Of a stretch of 42,935 nucleotides of DNA, positions 8,650 through 33,129 are shown in pieces. The position numbers and the translations under genes are program-made. The DNA is from Armatimonadota bacterium. Lineage in GTDB: Bacteria; Armatimonadota; Hebobacteria; CAIYQO01. The stretch's first letter is position 1. Every line of letters begins with the position of its first letter. The stretch is taken from positions 1-42,935 of the forward strand of contig JBBRXO010000010.1 in NCBI GenBank assembly GCA_038248345.1. The letters are read 5' to 3'. The notes under the pieces are model-generated. The model did no database searches and had not been told where the DNA came from. It saw only the letters and a list, made by a program, of their open reading frames with translations.

Positions 8650-10725
8650 ATGGCACGTGAATTTCCGCTTGAGCGAATGAGAAATATCGGAATTGCCGCG
8701 CACATTGATGCGGGCAAAACCACAATGACTGAGCGAATGTTGTTCTACACCGGTCGGTTGCACCGCATGGGGGAAGTTCATGACGGCGCCGCTACCATGG
8801 ACTGGATGCCGCAGGAGCAGGAGCGTGGTATTACCATCACCTCCGCTGCTACCAGTTGCCAGTGGAATGACCATCTCATTAACATAATCGACACCCCAGG
8901 CCACGTTGACTTCACCATGGAAGTTGAGCGATCAATGCGGGTACTCGATGGCGTCATCGGTCTATTCTGTGCCGTAGGCGGCGTACAGCCGCAGTCCGAA
9001 ACGGTATGGCGTCAGGCTAATCGTTATAAAGTTCCTCGTCTGGCCTTCGTAAATAAAATGGATCGTACCGGCGCCGATTTCTATCGCGTGCTGGAATCCA
9101 TGAAAGAGCGCCTGGGCGTGCGTCCGGTGCCGTTACAGCTCCCCATTGGAGCGGAGACCGAGTTCAAGGGCATCGTTGACCTGGTGAAGATGAACGCCGT
9201 AATATACCCCGATGACCTCGGGCAGTCTGGCGTCGTTACTGATATTCCGGAAGATATGCGCGAATTGGCTGACAAGTACCGCGAAATTCTCATTGAAGCC
9301 GCTGCTGATGGTAACGATGAATTGACCATGAAGTACCTGGAAAATGGCACGCTGAATAATGAGGAGATCGTCCTCGGCATCCGCGCCTGCACCGTCACTT
9401 TCAGTATGGTTCCCGTTCTCTGCGGCTCCGCCTTCAAAAATAAGGGCGTACAGCCATTGATGGATGCCGTTGTAGACTATCTTCCGTCACCGCTGGACAA
9501 AGGTTCAGTTACGGGTATCAACCCGGATACCGAAGAGGAAGAGATTCGTGAGCCATCTGATGACGCGCCTTTCTCCGCCCTCGCTTTCAAAATTATGTCC
9601 GACCCCTATGTGGGGCGTTTGACCTATATTCGCGTTTACTCCGGCACCTGCCCGAAGGGCACGGCGGTGATGAACTCGTCCAAGGACAAACGCGAACGCT
9701 TCGGTCGTATCCTGCGTATGCATGCCAATCATCGTGAAGATATTGACGAGATCCGCACCGGCGACATCGTCGCAGTGGTAGGATTAACCAATACCACCAC
9801 CGGTGACACACTGACGGTGATGAAATCGCCATTATTGCTGGAGTCGATGCACTTCCCTGATCCTGTTATCAGTGTGGCTATCGAACCAAAGACCAAGGCT
9901 GATGAAGAGAAGCTGCAGGAAGGGCTGATCCGCCTGGCAGCGGAAGACCCAACCTTTAAACAGTTCACCGACCCGGAGACCGGCCAGACCATCGTTGCCG
10001 GTATGGGCGAATTGCACTTGGATATTATCGTAGACCGCTTACGTCGTGAGTTCCGTGTGGAGGCCAACACTGGCAAGCCGCAGGTAGCCTATCGTGAAGC
10101 CATCACCATCCCGGCCAAAGCCGAAGGCCGTTATGTACGGCAGACGGGTGGACGTGGTAAATACGGTCACGTCTGGGTCGCGCTGGAACCGCAGGAAGCG
10201 GGCACCGGCTTCACCTTCGTCGATGCGATTGTCGGCGGTGTGGTACCGCGTGAATATATCAGTGCGGTAGAAGCCGGTATTAAGGAAGCGCAAGATAACG
10301 GTATCCTGGGTGGCTATCCGGTGATCGACGTCAAAGCAACCTTGTATGACGGCAGCTACCATGATGTAGACTCCGACGAAATGTCCTTTAAGTTCGCCGG
10401 TTCCATCGCGTTCAAGGAAGCCATGCGCAAAGCCAAGCCGGTACTGATGGAGCCAGTCATGAAGGTCGACGTAGTTACCCCGGATGGTAACCTCGGCGAC
10501 ATCATGGGTGACATCAATTCCCGTCGTGCCCACGTGTTGGGGATGGATCAGATATCTGCCGGATTGCAGGAGATACATGCCAACGTGCCGCTGGCCGAGA
10601 TGTTCGGCTATGCCACCACCATTCGCTCATTAAGCCAGGGACGCGCTACCTACTCAATGGAGCCATCGCATTATGCGCAGGTGCCTAGATCGGTGGCTGA
10701 GGAAGTGCTGGGCGTACGTAAATAG
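8650..10725 (+). CDS. fusA: Elongation factor G (canonical)
   Basis: Motifs [38 protein letters not shown]. 691 aa. Confidence 0.98.
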
Positions 10726-10765
10726 TAACGGATACAGCCCGTCAGGCGATTGAGATTCAGTGGTA

Positions 10766-10794
10766 TTGACGAGCGTTTCCTAAATCTGTATAAT
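10766..10794 (+). promoter_or_regulatory. sigma70-type promoter of the S10 operon
   Basis: TTGACG, 17 bp, TATAAT, located between fusA and rpsJ. Confidence 0.8.
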
Positions 10795-10915
10795 AAACAC
10801 TTGTTGCGCCCCCGGCATATCGGGCGCAGGTACTTTGAAAAACTTGCCGGTCGGTTCAGCGAGGACCGAACTGGTGCTGGAGGCATACCGTCCTATGCGC
10901 AAAGAAACACGCAAG

Positions 10916-11358: not shown

Positions 11359-12141
11359 ATGGCTATTCGTAAGATGATCATGGGACGGAAAGTGGGCATG
11401 ACCCAACTCTTCGCGGAAGATGGCCGAGCAGTGCCAGTTACCGTGTTAGAAGTTGGCCCCTGCTATGTCGTCCAACGACGTAATAAAGACCGCGACGGCT
11501 ACGAAGCTGTCCAGGTCGGTTATATGGAATTTTCGGCCGGTGACGTGAAGCGCGCTGAGACTATGAAGCGCCTGCACGAGACCCGCCGTACCACAAATGA
11601 CCGCGCTAAAGTCACACAGGAGCCCCGCGGCCCACATCGTTTGACCCTTGCCCAGTTCGGGCACTTCGTCAAGCATAATGTGCCGGCTCTTCGTTTCCTC
11701 AAGGAATTCACCGTTGCCAATATCGACGACTTCCCCGAAGGCAAAGAAATCACCGCTGACCTCTTCAGCGTCGGTGATAAAGTCAACGTCATCGGCACCT
11801 CCAAGGGACGCGGCTTTACGGGCGTCGTTAAGCGGTACGGTTTCAAGGGCGGCAACGCCACCCACGGTTCCATGTTCCACCGTAAACCGGCCTCTGGCGG
11901 TGGTACTGATGCTGCACGAGTCTTCAAAGGCTCACGCCGTCCGGGACATTACGGTAATGAACAGGTAACTGTTAAGGGATTGACAGTAATGCGCGCTGAT
12001 GCGAGCAAAAATCTACTGGTGGTGACGGGCGCTGTGCCCGGTCCTTCAGGCGGAATGGTTGTGGTCACTATGACAGAGCGGGCAACCGCCGAGCATGGCC
12101 GCGGTCGCCTGGTGACCTTCACTGCATTGGAGAAAAACTAA
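11359..12141 (+). CDS. rplC: 50S ribosomal protein uL3 (with insertion and C-terminal extension)
   Basis: GRKVGMTQ, DGYEAVQ, GTSKGRGFTGVVKR, GAVPG. 260 aa. Confidence 0.96.
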   Translation: MAIRKMIMGRKVGMTQLFAEDGRAVPVTVLEVGPCYVVQRRNKDRDGYEAVQVGYMEFSAGDVKRAETMKRLHETRRTTNDRAKVTQEPRGPHRLTLAQFGHFVKHNVPALRFLKEFTVANIDDFPEGKEITADLFSVGDKVNVIGTSKGRGFTGVVKRYGFKGGNATHGSMFHRKPASGGGTDAARVFKGSRRPGHYGNEQVTVKGLTVMRADASKNLLVVTGAVPGPSGGMVVVTMTERATAEHGRGRLVTFTALEKN

Positions 12142-14437: not shown

Positions 14438-14869
14438 ATGGGCAAGAATTCACAAGAACGAGGATCACGGAAGCGCACACGCATTGAGCAGCACAAGGCC
14501 GAAGGCCTGGCGGTAGCTCATGCGAATGGCATCCGGATGGCACCTCTTAAAGTCCGCCGAGTGATCGACCTGATCCGCGGCAAGGATTATATTGAGGCGA
14601 TTTCAATCCTGAACTTTACACCGAATATCGCCGCGGAGCCGATCCGCAAGGTGGTGCAGTCTGCTGCGGCAAACGCCGAAACAAATTTGCACCTCGATCC
14701 AGAGCGGCTCTATATAAAGACCTGCTTTGTGGATCCCGGTTCCACTACTAAGCGCGTACACCCGACTACGATGGGACGCACACGCCTGGTACTGAAGCGG
14801 TCCAGCCATATTACGGTTCATCTGGCAGAACGAGAACGCGTTCGCACTACCCGCGGAGGGAGCAACTAA
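14438..14869 (+). CDS. rplV: 50S ribosomal protein uL22 (N-terminally extended)
   Basis: KVRRVIDLIRGK, SAAANAE, KRSSHITV. Start at ATG 14438 with SD GGGGAG. Confidence 0.95.
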   Translation: MGKNSQERGSRKRTRIEQHKAEGLAVAHANGIRMAPLKVRRVIDLIRGKDYIEAISILNFTPNIAAEPIRKVVQSAAANAETNLHLDPERLYIKTCFVDPGSTTKRVHPTTMGRTRLVLKRSSHITVHLAERERVRTTRGGSN

Positions 14870-15750
14870 TGGGTCAGAAGGTACATCCATACGGTTTTCG
14901 ACTTGGCATTATTCGTGACTGGCAGAGTCGCTGGTTTGCAGAAAAGGATTATAAGGAATTCGTAATCGAAGACCATAAAATCCGCACTTTCCTGCGCACC
15001 AAACTTGCTGGTATAGTCTCCTCCGGGGCACAGCGCCGTCCTGCACAGGGTGGGCGCAACAGCCGTGGTGGCAACGTCGATGCCGGAGTCTCGAACATCG
15101 AGATCGAACGCATGGCTAACATGATCAAGGTGACGATGCACACCGCACGTCCTGGTTTGATTATCGGCCGTGGCGGACGCGGTATCGACGATCTGCGCGC
15201 CGATCTGGAGAAACTAGTACCGCGCAAAGTGCAGTTGAATGTGCTGGAGATCAAGCAGCCGGAGCTGGATGCTTATCTGGTAGCGGAATCAATCGCCAGT
15301 CAGATCACCCGACGTGTATCGTTCAAGCGAGCCATTCGTATGGCAATCGCCCGAACCATGCAACGCGGCGGCAAAGGGATTAAAGTTATTGTGGGCGGAC
15401 GCCTGGGCGGCGCGGAAATTGCGCGCTCCTATGGTGACAAAGACGGGAAGATCCCACTTCATACCATTCGTGCCGACATCGACTACGGTAACACACACGC
15501 CGCAACTACCTATGGTAACATCGGGGTTAAGGTGTGGATATATCGTGGCGAGATTCTGCCGAAGGCTTCAATTGCCCCACGTCCGGCGGCACATCCAGCG
15601 GTAGCGGCAGTTGTTGCAGTGGATGAGAAGAAATCCAAGGGCTGGCGTCGCGTAACTCGCGATACGGCTGAAGAGCCGGTAGCCGAGCCGATTGTTGAAG
15701 TTATTGATGTAGTTTCGGCGGTCGAGGAAACACAACCCGAGCAGCTCTAA
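14869..15750 (+). CDS. rpsC: 30S ribosomal protein uS3 (with insertion and C-terminal tail)
   Basis: MGQKVHPYGFRLG, ARPGLIIG, GRLGGAEIAR, PLHTIRADIDYG. Confidence 0.97.
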   Translation: MGQKVHPYGFRLGIIRDWQSRWFAEKDYKEFVIEDHKIRTFLRTKLAGIVSSGAQRRPAQGGRNSRGGNVDAGVSNIEIERMANMIKVTMHTARPGLIIGRGGRGIDDLRADLEKLVPRKVQLNVLEIKQPELDAYLVAESIASQITRRVSFKRAIRMAIARTMQRGGKGIKVIVGGRLGGAEIARSYGDKDGKIPLHTIRADIDYGNTHAATTYGNIGVKVWIYRGEILPKASIAPRPAAHPAVAAVVAVDEKKSKGWRRVTRDTAEEPVAEPIVEVIDVVSAVEETQPEQL

Positions 15751-15780: not shown

Positions 15781-16212
15781 ATGTTAATGCCTGCGAAAGT
15801 AAAATTCAGGAAGCTGCATCGTGGAAATAAAAACGGTAAGGCTACCCGTGGTAATACCGTAGCGATGGGCGATTTTGGATTGATGGCTATAGAAAATTGC
15901 TGGATGACCAACCGCCAGATAGAAGCAGCTCGTATCGCGATGACACGCTATATTAAACGCCAGGGTAAAGTTTGGATCCGAATTTTCCCGGACAAGAGTG
16001 TAACGGCGAAGCCCGCCGAAACCCGTATGGGTTCCGGTAAAGGCGCTCCCGAGCATTGGGTATCGGTTATCAAGCCAGGTCGCGTACTGTTTGAGATGGC
16101 GGGAGTCACCGAAGAGCAGGCCCGCGAAGCCATGCGGCTGGCCGCGCACAAATTACCCATTAAGACAAAATTCGTCACTCGTGAGCAGACGAATGGGGAG
16201 GAAAACCAGTGA
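15781..16212 (+). CDS. rplP: 50S ribosomal protein uL16
   Basis: [33 protein letters not shown]. Confidence 0.98.
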
Positions 16213-16490
16213 AACTGGATGAACGACAACGGTTACATGCACTAAGCATCGCTGAATTGACTAAGGAGTTAGTGGACGCGGAAGCGCAACTGCTGACCTA
16301 CCGCTTTGATGCTGGGCTAAATCGCCTTTCCAATCCGGCGGGGATGCACAACACCCGCAAACTCATCGCGGTGCTGAAGACTATCATACGGGAGAAGGAA
16401 CTGCTGGCAGACAGCGGCTTCACCACGATGACCGAGTATAAGACTTATAAGATGGCCGAACGAGCCTCCTATAAGGCATCGAAGAGCTAA
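16209..16490 (+). CDS. rpmC: 50S ribosomal protein uL29 (C-terminally extended)
   Basis: Lies between rplP and rpsQ; pattern L..YRF...L..P......RK.IA.LKTIIRE. Confidence 0.9.
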
Positions 16491-16520
16491 ATGCCAACTG
16501 CGAGAGCAGGGAGATTGACC

Positions 16521-16790
16521 ATGGTAGAGATTGAAGAAGCCCGTAATCGTCGCAAAGTGCGCGAAGGGGTTGTTACTAGCGATAAAATGAATAAGACCGT
16601 GGTAGTGAAGGTTTCTGACCTGGTGCAGCATCCGCTGTACAAGCGTGTCATGAAGCGCTCGACTACCTTTAAAGCTCATGATGAGGAAAATCAATGCGGC
16701 ATTGGGGATAAGGTACAGATAATGGAGACCCGTCCCCTGAGTAAAGACAAATGCTGGCGCGTGACGACTATCATTGAAAAAGCTAAATAA
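16521..16790 (+). CDS. rpsQ: 30S ribosomal protein uS17
   Basis: [29 protein letters not shown]. Confidence 0.97.
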
Positions 16791-16857
16791 CACTCGGGAA
16801 AATTGAATACGCAAAGTCGTCGTCGGTATTGTTGGTAATTCATTAATGGAGTGATCT

Positions 16858-18942
16858 ATGAAAAATTATCCGACCGGACAGATCCGTAACATCGTCATCC
16901 TTGGGCATGGCAGTGCGGGGAAAACTTCTCTCGCCGAAGCCATGATGTTTCAGACAGGTGCTATCCAGAAGATGGGTAACATTGACCAGGGAACAACTGT
17001 GGCTGACGTCGATATCGACGAAATTCAGCGGAAGCATACTATATCAACCGCATTGTTGCCGATACAGTATGAAGACGTGAAGATAAACGTTCTCGACGCA
17101 CCAGGATATGCTGACTTTATCGGAGAAGTGACCAGTGCAATCTACGTGGCCGATGCCGCCGTAATGGTGGTTGACGGCACCGCCGGCGTGCAAGTGCAGA
17201 CGGATCGTTACTGGCGGATGGCGCGTGAGCAGCAGATGCCCGGTCTATTCTTTGTAACGAAGATGGACAAAGAAGGGGCGGACTTTGACAAAGTGCTGGT
17301 AGCACTGAAGAAGCGATTTGGCTCCGGAGTGGTGCCGATTCAATACCCTATTGGGAAGGAATCGGGTTTCCATGGAGTTATCGACTTAGTGCATATGAAA
17401 GCGCTGGTCGGAGATGAATCAACGGCGCGTCCGAAGATATCCGAGATACCGGCCGAGTATGCTGAAGTCGCAGAACGCATGCGGGAGCAAGTGATCGAAG
17501 CAGCGGCGGAGGCCAGTGATGACCTGACGCTCAAGTTCCTTGAAGAGGGAACACTGAGCGACGAGGAGATCATCAACGGTCTTCAGATAGTCATCCGTGA
17601 AGGAAAAACCTTCCCGGTGCTGATGGGTACAGGTACGAAAAATCTGGGCACCATACCGCTGTTGAAGACGATAATTGAATGTCTGCCATCGCCCAATGAG
17701 CGGCCCGCCGTTATAGCCCGGCAGAATGATGACGAGATTGAGCTGACGGCGCAAGATAATGGACCACTGGCGGCCTATGTCTTTAAGACTTCAATCGACC
17801 AGTTCGCTGGTAAAGTGAATTTTTTACGAATATTCTCCGGTTCGCTACACGGTGGCATGGAGTTATTTAATACGACGAAGGAATGCAAAGAGCGCATCGG
17901 TAACCTGTTCGAGCTGGTGAATAAACAGCAGGATGTGGTGGAGCGAGCGAGTGCTGGCGATATCGTCGAAGTAGCCAAGTTGCATGATACGGGAACTACG
18001 CATACGCTGTCGACAAACGGCGCGCGAATTCTCATTACTCCGGTGAAATATCCGGAACCGATGTTGAATTTCTCGTTATCGCCCGTCACCAAGGGTGATG
18101 AAGATAAAATGGCGCAGGGATTGCACCGCTTTATGGAAGAAGATTTGACGTTGCGCTTTGAGCAGGATGCCGAAACGCACCAGTCGATCATCGCTGGCAT
18201 GGGCGAATTGCAGATTGAGGTAACACGCGAGCGCTTGAAACGGAAGTTTAATGTCGCCACCGTGTTGCATAATCCGCAAGTAGCGTACCGTGAGACTATC
18301 CGCGTAAAGGCGGAGGGACATGGGCGGCACAAGAAACAGTCCGGCGGAGCTGGACAGTTCGGCGAAGTAATGATTCGCCTAGAGCCGATGCCACGGGGTA
18401 CCGGGTATGTTTTCGAGGATGCAGTGGTAGGCGCTTCGGTGCCGAATAACTTTATCCCGAAAGTGGACATGGGTGTGCGGGAAGCGATGAAGCACGGCCC
18501 CATCGCCGGTTTTCCGGTGATTGATTTTAAGTGTGTCCTATATGATGGGAAGAGCCATCCGGTGGACTCGAAGGAAATCGCCTTCATCACCGCTGGCAGG
18601 CTCGGTTTCCACGATGCCATGGAAAAGGCGCAGCCGGTGCTGTTGGAGCCGTATGTGAATGCGGAGATCACCATACCGGATGAGTTAATTGGAGACGTAT
18701 TCTCCGGCGTAAGCGGCAAACGGGGCCGCGTACAGGGAAGTGATTCGCTGGGGAGCGGGATGGCCGTTGTGCGGGTACAAGTGCCGCAGGCGGAGATGTT
18801 CCAGTATAGTAATGAATTACGGGCGCTATCCCAGGGGCGTGGGAGCTTCACCATGAGCTTCTCGCATTACGAAGATGCCCCGATGCAGATCACCGAAAAG
18901 GTGAAGGCTGAAGCGGTAAAGAGACATAGCGAAGAGCATTGA
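16858..18942 (+). CDS. Elongation factor G paralogue (EF-G2-like)
   Basis: 694 aa with all five EF-G domains. Divergent G motifs GHGSAGKT, RKHTI, DAPGY, TKMD; domain IV KKQSGGAGQFG and SHPVDS. Confidence 0.93.
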   Translation: MKNYPTGQIRNIVILGHGSAGKTSLAEAMMFQTGAIQKMGNIDQGTTVADVDIDEIQRKHTISTALLPIQYEDVKINVLDAPGYADFIGEVTSAIYVADAAVMVVDGTAGVQVQTDRYWRMAREQQMPGLFFVTKMDKEGADFDKVLVALKKRFGSGVVPIQYPIGKESGFHGVIDLVHMKALVGDESTARPKISEIPAEYAEVAERMREQVIEAAAEASDDLTLKFLEEGTLSDEEIINGLQIVIREGKTFPVLMGTGTKNLGTIPLLKTIIECLPSPNERPAVIARQNDDEIELTAQDNGPLAAYVFKTSIDQFAGKVNFLRIFSGSLHGGMELFNTTKECKERIGNLFELVNKQQDVVERASAGDIVEVAKLHDTGTTHTLSTNGARILITPVKYPEPMLNFSLSPVTKGDEDKMAQGLHRFMEEDLTLRFEQDAETHQSIIAGMGELQIEVTRERLKRKFNVATVLHNPQVAYRETIRVKAEGHGRHKKQSGGAGQFGEVMIRLEPMPRGTGYVFEDAVVGASVPNNFIPKVDMGVREAMKHGPIAGFPVIDFKCVLYDGKSHPVDSKEIAFITAGRLGFHDAMEKAQPVLLEPYVNAEITIPDELIGDVFSGVSGKRGRVQGSDSLGSGMAVVRVQVPQAEMFQYSNELRALSQGRGSFTMSFSHYEDAPMQITEKVKAEAVKRHSEEH

Positions 18943-18967
18943 ACCGCAAGCCGAGAGGTTTAGCTAA

Positions 18968-19336
18968 ATGATCCAGTTAAGATCGAGACTAAAAGTGGCG
19001 GATAACTCGGGCGCACGAGTCGTAGAGTGTATTCGTGTACTGAAGGGTTCTACCGGCAGCAGCGCTAATATCGGTGACACCATCGTGGTAGCGGTGAAGC
19101 AGGTGACCCCAGGCTCAGCAGTGAAGAAAGGTGACGTCGCCAAAGCGGTGATTGTTCGCACCAAAAAAGCATTGCGTCGTCCCGACGGTTCCTATATCCG
19201 TTTCGATGAAAACGCCGCTGTACTCATTAATGATCAGAAGAATCCGCGTGGAACACGTATCTTCGGGCCAGTTGCACGCGAACTGCGTGACCGTGATTAT
19301 ATGAAAATTGTTAGCCTGGCTCCAGAGGTACTCTGA
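18968..19336 (+). CDS. rplN: 50S ribosomal protein uL14
   Basis: [35 protein letters not shown]. Confidence 0.98.
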
Positions 19337-19452
19337 AGCTGGTTAGCCTTCTAGCAAGTCAATACTTGACAGAAGGAAGTGGAATAACGTATTATTACCG
19401 CTTGTGTGGCCCTGGTAAAAATGCGTGGGTTCCCGTGTGTTGGTAGGTGATT

Positions 19453-19872
19453 ATGAAAATTGTCAAGGGTGATATAGTTCTGTTACGCTCCGGTAAGGAT
19501 GTCGCTGCTTTGGATTCGTCCAAAAAGGCGCAGGGCGTGCGCGGTAAAGTGATCCGCGTGCTGACCAAAGCCGATAAAGTAGTCCTCGAAGGCGTCAATA
19601 TGGTCACCAAGCATCAGCGAGCCGGGCAGACCTCCGGGTCAGCGGCGATTCAGCAAGGTGGGCGCATCCAGATGGAAGCCCCTGTGCCGGTATCCCGCAT
19701 CATGCTTGTGTGCTCGAATTGCGATAAGCCCACGCGAATTGGAACACAGCTCCGCCAGGATACTCGTCAGACATTGACGGGTGACAAGACGGTTGTTGTT
19801 CGAGATCGCGTCTGCAAAAAGTGTGGCCAGGTTATCCGACGCCCCACCGAAGATCGCTTACGCTTAGGCTAG
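19453..19872 (+). CDS. rplX: 50S ribosomal protein uL24
   Basis: KOW-like KGDIV...GKD, VVLEGVN, EAPV, CSNC...CKKC. Start is ATG 19453 or GTG 19447. Confidence 0.94.
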   Translation: MKIVKGDIVLLRSGKDVAALDSSKKAQGVRGKVIRVLTKADKVVLEGVNMVTKHQRAGQTSGSAAIQQGGRIQMEAPVPVSRIMLVCSNCDKPTRIGTQLRQDTRQTLTGDKTVVVRDRVCKKCGQVIRRPTEDRLRLG

Positions 19873-19948
19873 TAGTCTAGGTATTACCGCCGAACGGTCC
19901 ATCATGGATGCGAACGGGATGGTGATGCCCGAATAGAAGGAGAATCCT

Positions 19949-20629
19949 GTGGCAAAGCAAGTGAGCAAGAAAGCTGCTCCGCCGGCCAAAAAAGGTGGGA
20001 AACCACCCATTATCCCGGCAAAGGGAAAAGAGAAGAAAGTTTCGGCGTTAGCCGGCCTGGTGGGCGGACCTGAAGAAAAAGGGCCAGCACCTCGTTTACA
20101 TGAATTCTACAAGGTTGATGTAGTACCGGCGTTGCAGGAGCAATTCGCCTATGAAAACGTGATGCAGATCCCGCGTGTGCTTAAAGTTGTCATCAATATG
20201 GGTGTCGGCGAAGCACTGCAGGATTCCAAAACACTGGACAATGCGGTACGCGAAATGACTCTCATCAGTGGACAGAAGCCGCTGGTGACTAAAGCAAAGA
20301 TGTCCGTTGCGGCTTTCAAACTCCGCCTCGGTAACCCCATCGGCTGCAAAGTTACCATGCGCGGTGTGCGCATGTGGGAATTTCTGGATCGTCTCTTCAC
20401 GGCGTCATTGCCGCGTATTCGTGACTTCCAGGGTCTCCCCAGTAAGAGCTTCGATGGACGTGGCAATTATACTTTCGGGTTACGCGATCAGACGATCTTC
20501 CCGGAAATTGCAATTGACTCGATCGACCGGGTGCGCGGGATGGATATCACCATCGTCACCACGGCGAGTACAGATGAAGAAGCACGAACGTTGTTGACGC
20601 GGTTGGGCTTGCCCCTGCGTAAGAAATAG
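19949..20629 (+). CDS. rplE: 50S ribosomal protein uL5 (N-terminally extended)
   Basis: [45 protein letters not shown] start with SD AAGGAG. Confidence 0.97.
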
Positions 20630-32541: not shown

Positions 32542-33129
32542 ATGAGTATGGCGATGCGCAAAGAAGATATTAGCTACACTTACAGCGATTATCTCACCTG
32601 GGATGACGGTAAGCGCCGGGAGATTATTGACGGTGTTGTGTATGATATGTCACCTGCGCCAACGGTGGATCACCAGGGAATATCTGGATATCTGTTCAAT
32701 CAGATTTATAACTTCACTATCTAAAAGCCGTGCAACGTATAAAGCGCCCCCTTCGATGTTGTCTTGCCGAAAGCAAACGAGAGTGAGGACGAGGCAGTGA
32801 CGGTAGTGCAACCGGACATCGTAGTTATTTGTGATAAGAACAAATTGACTAAGCTTGGTTGTACCGGTGCGCCAGATATGATAATAGAGATCCTCTCACC
32901 CAGCACAGCGAAAAAAGATATGACCGTTAAGATGAAGCTCTATCAACGAGCAGGTGTACGCGAACTGTGGGTAGTGCATCCCGAAGAGAAATGGGTACAA
33001 ATATTTATTTTTAGCGAGGGCAATTTAGCCAGTATGCAATCATTCGATGACTCAGGTCATCCCGATGTGAGCGTGCTGCCCGGATTGACGATTGAATTGC
33101 CGCGGGTGTTCGCTGCGGCAGAATTTTAG
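32542..33129 (+). pseudogene. Uma2-family (PD-(D/E)xK) endonuclease with two in-frame TAA stops
   Basis: One frame reads YTYSDYLTW...REIIDG..YDMSPAP...H...QIYNFTI*KPCNV*SAPFDV...VVQPD...GAPD.IIEILSPST...K..LYQRAGVRE. Stops are at 32722-32724 and 32740-32742. Confidence 0.88.

What the first reader, a model, noticed from the sequence alone, without database searches (positions are those of the whole stretch)
16791..18967. Divergent second EF-G embedded in the ribosomal superoperon at the S10/spc junction
Seen: a full-length EF-G paralogue lies between rpsQ and rplN, genes that are normally adjacent. The spacers are only 67 and 25 nt, it has its own SD, and no terminator is evident, while a canonical fusA sits 6 kb upstream. 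Its GTPase motifs are altered: AHIDAGKT>GHGSAGKT, RGITI>RKHTI, catalytic-His motif DTPGH>DAPGY, NKMD>TKMD. Known: EF-G2 paralogues occur in Thermus, Mycobacterium and Bacteroides, vary in ribosome-dependent GTPase activity, and are usually encoded away from r-protein operons. Inference: here it is co-transcribed with ribosomal proteins, so it may be a constitutive specialised factor (recycling, splitting, assembly or low-GTP translocation) working with this lineage's modified ribosome.
Basis: partly seen in the sequence, partly recalled or inferred. Interest (0 to 1): 0.75.

Follow-up and report, generated by a model that had tools for sequence, protein, structure and literature searches.

The report
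Second EF-G built into ribosome operon
A second copy of the ribosome's translocation factor EF-G, of a known type that lacks the usual catalytic histidine, sits among the ribosomal-protein genes in most Armatimonadota genomes examined, at one of two fixed places, so it is likely made together with ribosomes rather than only under stress.

Summary
A 694-aa EF-G paralogue (16858-18942) lies between rpsQ and rplN with 67/25-nt spacers, and a contig from another study spans it. The altered motifs are ordinary: they mark the known EFG II (EF-G2) subfamily, and Thermus EF-G2 also has DAPGY and TKxD.

The position is what stands out. Of 128 Armatimonadota genomes classified, 97 (31 of 36 families) carry the gene inside the S10-spc cluster, 46 at rpsQ-rplN and 51 at rplE-rpsN. 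None of 101 EF-G II loci from other lineages does. Short spacers, stop/start overlaps and few terminators point to co-transcription. In this family conserved promoters lie before rpsJ and after rplN, not at the gene.

Domain IV is as conserved as in FusA, while the G domain is relaxed. Several lineages lost or moved the gene, so it is dispensable. Best reading: an accessory, GTPase-poor translocase made with ribosomes. No RNA or biochemical data exist here.

I found no paper on the arrangement. This scan noted it three times before on other genomes. New variant of a known kind; interest 0.5.

The parts
16858..18942 (+). EF-G II (EF-G2) gene, 694 aa, five-domain EF-G; G1 GHGSAGKT, G2 RKHTI, G3 DAPGY (Tyr84 in place of the catalytic His), G4 TKMD; domain IV KKQSGGAGQFG and HPVDS
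16848..16854 (+). Shine-Dalgarno-like GGAGTGA before the EF-G II start
   Evidence: read
16791..16857 (+). 67-nt rpsQ/EF-G II spacer; no terminator; only a 9/12 promoter-like match (16774-16803) at chance level
16491..16790 (+). rpsQ (uS17), upstream neighbour
18943..18967 (+). 25-nt EF-G II/rplN spacer, no terminator
18968..19336 (+). rplN (uL14), downstream neighbour
19366..19395 (+). sigma70-like promoter TTGACA-18-TATTAT between rplN and rplX, conserved in 8 of 8 family members; predicted internal promoter for the remaining spc genes
10766..10794 (+). sigma70-like promoter TTGACG-17-TATAAT before rpsJ, present in 4 of 4 family members whose locus reached rpsJ; predicted promoter of the rpsJ...rpsQ-EF-G II-rplN transcript
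8650..10725 (+). canonical fusA (EFG I) in the str operon, with [13 protein letters not shown] and DTPGH

Best explanation
The gene encodes an EFG II-subfamily paralogue of EF-G that sits inside the S10-spc ribosomal-protein cluster across most Armatimonadota families examined; it is likely co-transcribed from the S10 promoter, so likely made together with ribosomes, and is predicted to act as an accessory, GTP-hydrolysis-poor translocase beside canonical FusA. Shown: identity, position, phylum-wide conservation at two sites, purifying selection, domain IV conserved as well as in FusA, and loss of the catalytic His. Inferred: one transcript; growth-coupled synthesis; ribosome binding through domain IV loops that drives slow translocation, or rescues slow translocation, with little GTP turnover; an early capture followed by local moves past the rplN-rplX-rplE block (site A rpsQ/rplN versus site B rplE/rpsN).
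For: (1) 97 of 128 classified genomes of the phylum, in 31 of 36 families, have it in the cluster: 46 site A, 51 site B. Controls: 0 of 77 EF-G II loci from other phyla and 0 of 24 from the phylum of G168. (2) Median spacers are 36.5/29 nt at site A and 52/52 nt at site B. The stop abuts or overlaps the next start in 2 of 44 site-A and 12 of 46 site-B loci. Terminator-like sites downstream: 0 of 44 (A) and 3 of 45 scanned (B). No promoter-like site was found upstream in either set. Positive controls: the same scans found a promoter after rplN in 8 of 8 family members and a terminator after rplE in 12 of 14 genomes whose cluster is broken there. (3) Across 20 genomes, mean pairwise identity FusA versus EF-G II is 62.6 versus 61.5% in domain IV but 81.3 versus 50.1% in the G domain core. 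The loop II His is invariant in 90 of 90 in-cluster copies. (4) His84 is replaced in 90 of 90 (Tyr 78, Phe 8, Gly 3, Leu 1). H88Y nearly abolishes GTPase activity of mycobacterial EF-G1 (bioRxiv 10.64898/2026.05.25.727771, passages). EFGII can translocate slowly (PMC4342817, passage). (5) pN/pS is about 0.07 on the 48 listed differences to the X3 strain.
Against: No transcript or protein data were available. Codon usage resembles ribosomal-protein genes less than fusA does (60th versus 97th percentile, in a genome with weak bias). The gene is outside the cluster in f6, f7, f13 and f28. It was not found in 5 of 5 genomes of f16, f29 and f10 searched with the family model, so neither the gene nor the position is required. 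Thermus EF-G2 has the same Tyr yet is reported to have ribosome-dependent GTPase activity, and mycobacterial EF-G2 is reported as a stress factor that binds non-ratcheted ribosomes, so the motif does not fix the activity. The window's copy departs from phylum consensus at 21 of 158 conserved columns (median 7), including loop I Arg to Ala. The promoter scan found nothing in GC-rich families outside f1, so its negative result there is weak.
Confidence: 0.5

Rival explanations
1. Frozen accident. The gene landed in the cluster once and is kept for an ordinary EF-G2 role (stress or stationary-phase ribosome binding, slow translation). The position adds nothing, and output is tuned after transcription or by a weak internal promoter.
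For: Intact copies exist outside the cluster in f6, f7, f13 and f28, and those of f13, f7 and f28 nest among site-B copies, so they moved out. Codon score is unremarkable. A weak promoter-like stretch in the spacer is shared with the congener G001. Characterised EF-G2s are stress-induced (PMC6989115 passages).
Against: The gene occupies two different in-cluster sites, and site B appears in two separate branches of the ribosomal-protein tree (f20 and the large clade), so moves tended to end inside the cluster. Clean removal is possible (normal rplE-rpsN spacing in f6, f7, f29), yet 31 of 36 families retain the in-cluster copy. Spacers under 20 nt leave no room for a dedicated promoter in 8 of 40 (A) and 14 of 45 (B) loci.
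Confidence: 0.3
2. Ribosome-assembly or quality-control factor. Co-expression supplies it in step with new subunits, where it test-binds the factor-binding centre of nascent 50S or 70S particles, by analogy with eukaryotic EFL1 (analogy recalled, not from a call).
For: Operon membership with ribosomal proteins; the relaxed G domain; mycobacterial EF-G2 has a solved 50S complex (9K10).
Against: The best-conserved part is domain IV with its tRNA/decoding-site loops, which fits translocation. The gene has been lost repeatedly. No direct evidence.
Confidence: 0.1
3. Dedicated recycling or splitting factor working with RRF, as in Borrelia or mitochondria.
For: Division of labour between two EF-Gs is known (passages).
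Against: Mitochondrial EF-G2 keeps the G motifs and the catalytic His; the EFG II-type protein of mycobacteria cannot recycle. FusA here is canonical, and genomes without EF-G II exist.
Confidence: 0.06
4. Assembly artefact, pseudogene or recent insertion.
For: The window's copy has a long terminal branch (0.38).
Against: An independent contig spans the locus; same order in 46 genomes; pN/pS about 0.07; GC and GC3 match neighbouring genes.
Confidence: 0.01

Closest known systems
EFG II subfamily of EF-G (Margus, Remm and Tenson 2011, PMC3150367; EFGII in PMC4342817); NCBIfam NF009381 PRK12740
   Same: G1 GhxxxGKT, loss of RGITI, relaxed domains I-III, conserved domain IV with KK in loop I, and coexistence with a str-operon EFG I.
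   Different: In the passages read, a conserved gene context is described only for EFG I (str operon). Here EFG II has a phylum-conserved place inside the S10-spc cluster. The window's copy matches 9 of the 13 tabulated diagnostic positions; the family majority matches 12 of 13.
Thermus thermophilus EF-G-2 (PDB 1WDT/2DY1)
   Same: DAPGY and TKLDK motifs aligned residue for residue; reported to translocate.
   Different: 665 versus 694 aa. Its gene context was not checked here.
Bacteroides thetaiotaomicron EF-G2 (fusA2; NF058620; PDB 7UVP/8DMF)
   Same: EF-G paralogue with altered G motifs and a reported role in slow translocation.
   Different: Score 578 against a cut-off of 1000. It has its own promoter, is induced over 200-fold by carbon limitation while fusA falls, which is the opposite of the regulation predicted here.
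Mycobacterium smegmatis EF-G2 (PDB 9K0Z/9K10; NF009377 is the NCBIfam EF-G2 model)
   Same: Catalytic His replaced by Tyr; dispensable.
   Different: NF009377 score 604 against a cut-off of 890. Reported as stress-specific, unable to recycle, with minimal ribosome-dependent GTPase.

Membership tests
EFG II subfamily | G1 consensus GhxxxGKT (Gly16, Leu25) | tested here: met
   GHGSAGKTSL
EFG II subfamily | Loss of the trGTPase G2 consensus RGITI | tested here: met
   RKHTI
EFG II subfamily | Ser at the fourth G2 position (76% of members) | tested here: not met
   Thr61 in the window; Ser in 7 of 8 family members and 83 of 90 in-cluster copies. Not an invariant feature of the subfamily.
EFG II subfamily | Type I and II conserved positions (13 rows in Tables 1-2 of PMC3150367) | tested here: met
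   9 of 13 in the window (misses T61, S220, N355, D537); family majority 12 of 13
EFG II subfamily | Domains I-III relaxed, domain IV as conserved as in EFG I | tested here: met
   G core 50 vs 81%, II 47 vs 64%, III 50 vs 74%, IV 61.5 vs 62.6% over 20 genomes
EFG II subfamily | Tree placement apart from EFG I, with EF-G II of other phyla | tested here: met
   Split from FusA at support 100; no spdEFG or Tet sequences were in these trees
EFG II subfamily | Occurs beside an EFG I in the str operon | tested here: met
   fusA 8650-10725 after rpsL-rpsG
EFG I (canonical FusA) | [22 protein letters not shown]00484 above cut-off | tested here: not met
   649.4 against 659.4 bits; all three motifs changed
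Recycling-type EF-G2 (mitochondrial, Borrelia) | Conserved G1-G5 with catalytic His | tested here: not met
   Tyr84; mitochondrial EF-G2 keeps His145. Borrelia motifs were not checked.
Tetracycline ribosomal protection proteins | NF012153 above cut-off | tested here: not met
   324 against 775 bits
Bacteroides EF-G2 / NCBIfam EF-G2 models | NF058620 or NF009377 above cut-off | tested here: not met
   578 against 1000; 604 against 890
GTPase-poor slow translocase (functional class) | Low ribosome-dependent GTPase with retained translocation | not testable with these tools
   Only sequence correlates
S10-spc transcription unit | One transcript across rpsQ-EF-G II-rplN | tested here: inconclusive
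   Indirect support from spacers, overlaps and promoter/terminator scans; no RNA data

The most novel reading that the evidence does not exclude
In Armatimonadota, EF-G II is a core, growth-coupled component of the translation machinery, made in step with ribosomal proteins. It was kept inside the ribosomal operon through more than one rearrangement because its dose must track ribosome synthesis, either as a GTP-sparing second translocase in routine use or as a maturation and proofreading factor for new ribosomes. That would overturn the view of EF-G2 as a stress-only backup.
Probability: 0.25. Interest if true: 0.75.

Novelty: new variant of a known kind. Interest (0 to 1): 0.5.

Why it matters
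EFG II is widespread and described as having an unknown role (PMC4342817). The few studied members are stress-induced and separately regulated. A phylum that wires the gene into its ribosomal-protein cluster, with natural in-cluster, moved-out and lost states in related families, gives a direct comparative test of what EF-G II does and whether it works during growth. The two alternative sites, and the operon break at the vacated site, are also rare genomic markers for the deep branching of Armatimonadota and for how the conserved S10-spc cluster is remodelled.

Tried and rejected
Expression: no RNA holder was listed for the stretch, which is no evidence either way. Runs X2 and X4 covered the stretch only in pieces, and X1 may be the source of the window.

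Rfam: no family at gathering score in the window, so no known ribosomal-protein leader. Spacer folds were not better than shuffles.

The first wide alignment (A1) was too variable for a collection scan; a 10-sequence alignment was used instead. That scan covered about 6 of 64 parts of the collection and kept the best 80, so the control is a sample selected by two motifs. About 14 of the 77 control loci have one flank under 500 nt or cut; one (L168) has rplQ/rpoA on the opposite strand.

One versus two captures is unresolved. Free trees separate site-A and site-B copies, but the AU test does not reject one clade (p 0.246; site A alone p 0.382). The site-B test did not finish.

Four site-A upstream spacers were dropped from the medians because stop-codon mapping failed, and two of them were not scanned for terminators. 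L083 (internal stop) was left out of alignments and trees.

NF009381 is not diagnostic, since FusA also passes it. Codon analysis was weak.

No structure prediction or complex job was run, because the fold is not in doubt. Correlation with ribosomal-protein extensions ('modified ribosome') was not tested.

The EMBO J 2023 Bacteroides EF-G2 paper is not held. No supplements were read; supplementary gene tables of Armatimonadota genome papers could show the arrangement without comment.

Full report
Observation. The window holds a 694-aa ORF at 16858-18942 (+) between rpsQ (16491-16790) and rplN (18968-19336), with spacers of 67 and 25 nt and an SD-like GGAGTGA. It aligns over its whole length with the window's FusA (8650-10725) at 39% identity. 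These are the only two full-length EF-G genes in the 2.98-Mb genome. GC (0.53) and GC3 (0.61) match the neighbours. In run X3, from a different study than the possible source run, a single 17.5-kb contig spans 15802-20200 with 188 differing letters and no joint, so the arrangement is not an assembly artefact.

What the protein is. It scores 857 bits on NF009381 and falls just under the TIGR00484 cut-off (649 versus 659); it is far under the Tet, Bacteroides EF-G2 and NF009377 cut-offs. Margus et al. 2011 (PMC3150367; passages and sections 15 and 18 read) define EFG II by G1 GhxxxGKT, loss of RGITI, relaxed domains I-III, an equally conserved domain IV, and a table of diagnostic positions. Mapped through the Thermus EF-G1 alignment, the window's protein matches 9 of 13 tabulated positions and its family's majority matches 12 of 13. 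Thermus EF-G-2 (1WDT) has DAPGY and TKLDK at the same places, and GHxxxGKT-type P-loops with DxPGY/F dominate the loci from other phyla. The motif changes are therefore subfamily traits and not new. TKMD and Thr61 are local: 7 of 8 family members have Asn and Ser.

Lineage. A locus titled Armatimonadota bacterium (L122) shows rpsQ-EF-G II-rplN and falls inside a family of the window's own class in the protein tree with support 100. I take the window's phylum to be Armatimonadota on that basis. Two other loci with that NCBI title (L148, L162) lack the arrangement; the 25 genomes drawn from the phylum of L148's genome all received new handles, so I infer that they belong to a different GTDB phylum.

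Synteny. Two searches covered 167 genomes of the phylum; I classified 128 and did not examine 39. The choice favoured high-scoring hits and then targeted apparent exceptions, so the fractions are not unbiased. Site A (rpsQ-EF-G II-rplN): 46 genomes in 14 families. Site B (rplE-EF-G II-rpsN): 51 genomes in 17 families. Not in the cluster: 31 genomes, one of them on a contig too short to tell. No family had both sites; 31 of 36 families have at least one in-cluster copy. Site B counts include one copy with an internal stop (G129), one cut upstream (G085) and one with two extra ORFs before rpsN (G105). Controls: 0 of 77 EF-G II loci from other phyla (28 Actinomycetota, 22 Chloroflexota, 15 Bacillota, 12 others) had co-oriented ribosomal-protein neighbours, nor did 24 of 24 examined from the phylum of G168. 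In 10 of 10 outgroup genomes rpsQ-rplN-rplX-rplE-rpsN was contiguous.

Transcription, indirect. Median spacers are 36.5 nt upstream and 29 nt downstream at site A (n 40 and 44) and 52 and 52 nt at site B (n 45 and 46). The EF-G II stop abuts or overlaps the next start in 2 of 44 and 12 of 46 loci. Terminator-like hairpins were seen upstream in 1 of 42 scanned and downstream in 0 of 44 site-A loci, and in 5 of 45 and 3 of 45 site-B loci; no promoter-like site lay upstream of the gene in either set. The scans had working controls: a near-consensus promoter lies between rplN and rplX in 8 of 8 members of the window's family (window 19366-19395; absent in 4 of 4 other-family loci checked), another before rpsJ in 4 of 4 family members whose locus reached rpsJ (window 10766-10794), and terminators follow rplE in 12 of 14 genomes whose cluster is broken there. 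The simplest reading for this family is a transcript from the rpsJ promoter through rpsQ, EF-G II and rplN, with a second promoter for rplX onward. A 9/12 promoter-like match at 16774-16803 is within the chance range (21 sites found, 11.6 expected), but a similar spacer in the congener G001 leaves a weak internal promoter possible. No RNA data were available.

Selection and function. Among the 48 listed differences from the X3 strain in the first 800 nt of the gene (the tool showed only part of all differences; one site beside a compensated indel was dropped), 39 are synonymous and 9 change a residue, pN/pS about 0.07. In 20 genomes with both genes, domain IV is as conserved in EF-G II as in FusA (61.5 versus 62.6% mean pairwise identity), whereas the G core is 50 versus 81%. 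The catalytic His is replaced in 90 of 90 in-cluster copies, while the domain IV loop II His is kept in 90 of 90. In mycobacterial EF-G1 the H88Y change nearly abolishes GTPase activity, and mycobacterial EF-G2 has that Tyr, does not recycle and is stress-associated; Thermus EF-G2 is reported to have GTPase and translocation activity; Bacteroides EF-G2 is linked to slow translocation (bioRxiv 10.64898/2026.05.25.727771, passages). EFGII is described as of unknown role but able to translocate slowly (PMC4342817, passages). Bacteroides fusA2 is induced 238-fold by carbon limitation from its own promoter while fusA falls (PMC6989115, passages). I therefore favour an accessory, GTPase-poor translocase whose synthesis is tied to ribosome production (0.5).

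Results against this reading. The gene lies outside the cluster in f6, f7, f13 and f28 and was not found in 5 of 5 genomes of f16, f29 and f10 searched with the family model, so it is dispensable in parts of the phylum. Its codon usage ranks at the 60th percentile for likeness to ribosomal-protein genes against the 97th for fusA, in a genome with weak bias. The window's copy is among the most divergent, differing at 21 of 158 conserved columns against a median of 7. A frozen accident with an ordinary backup role remains a serious rival (0.3).

History. In the ribosomal-protein tree, site A occurs in four deep lineages and site B in one large clade plus family f20. The two orders differ only by swapping the gene with the rplN-rplX-rplE block, which a local duplication and loss could produce (inference). 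EF-G II trees separate most A from most B copies, with other phyla between them at modest support, but one clade is not rejected (AU p 0.246). Out-of-cluster copies of f13, f7 and f28 nest among site-B copies, which indicates secondary exit. In f13, f16, f28 and one f10 genome the cluster is broken right after rplE. One capture versus several is unresolved.

Prior knowledge. A full-text search for EF-G2 with rpsQ and rplN gave 0 papers. Searches pairing Armatimonad- with elongation factor G, spc operon, S10-spc-alpha, fusA2 or EF-G paralog and general EF-G2 searches listed nothing on this arrangement; for most hits I saw only the listing and abstract start. Passages of the Fimbriimonas genome paper (PMC4072686), of the operon-cluster study in Gammaproteobacteria and Bacilli (PMC8046335) and of PMC12172202 do not mention it. 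The library lacks most subscription journals and no supplements were read. This scan recorded the same arrangement three times on other genomes (e1-955820, e1-2970898, e1-9836770). I saw those notes only after my own synteny, control and tree analyses; they agree and are not independent support.

Verdict. The feature is real. The protein is an ordinary EFG II. The conserved, apparently phylum-specific place inside the ribosomal-protein cluster is a new variant of a known kind and gives a handle on an open question, but co-expression and activity are inferred. Interest 0.5.

Noticed in passing
window 10725-10835; genome contig C25:25297-26514: tuf is missing from the str operon: fusA is followed directly by a promoter and rpsJ, and the EF-Tu gene lies on another contig. 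The congener G001 has about 1 kb between fusA and rpsJ.
   Followed up: partly
window 19366-19395: Near-consensus sigma70 promoter between rplN and rplX, conserved in 8 of 8 family members; the internal promoter of the spc genes lies one gene later than in E. coli (E. coli position recalled).
   Followed up: yes
L197, L200, L202, L203, L205, L206, L209, L210, L212, L213, L215, L216, L218, L219: In families f13, f16, f28 and one f10 genome the spc run is broken right after rplE, the site vacated by EF-G II; a terminator-like hairpin follows in 12 of 14, then unrelated genes.
   Followed up: partly
L039 153-2033 and L205: In G075, umuC- and umuD-like ORFs (named by eye from the translation) lie on the opposite strand between rplE and EF-G II, and rpsN no longer follows.
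   Followed up: no
L050: In G123 (f13) EF-G II lies head to head with the S10 genes, about 1 kb from rplC.
   Followed up: no
L071 1116-2465: In G105 two ORFs (290 and 157 aa; the first looks like a metallopeptidase by eye) sit between EF-G II and rpsN.
   Followed up: no
L083: The EF-G II of G129 at site B has one internal TAA stop: a possible pseudogene or sequencing error.
   Followed up: no
window 11359-12141, 14869-15750, 16209-16490, 19447-20629: Several ribosomal proteins look longer than usual: L3 260 aa, S3 293 aa, L29 93 aa with a C-terminal tail beyond the Pfam domain, L24 141 aa, L5 ORF 226 aa. No link to EF-G II was tested.
   Followed up: no
window 32542-33129: A Uma2-family gene appears split into two consecutive ORFs covering profile positions 2-45 and 70-170, a probable frameshift.
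   Followed up: no
window 16858-18942: This copy departs from the phylum consensus at 21 of 158 conserved columns, the joint highest of 90, yet is under purifying selection.
   Followed up: partly
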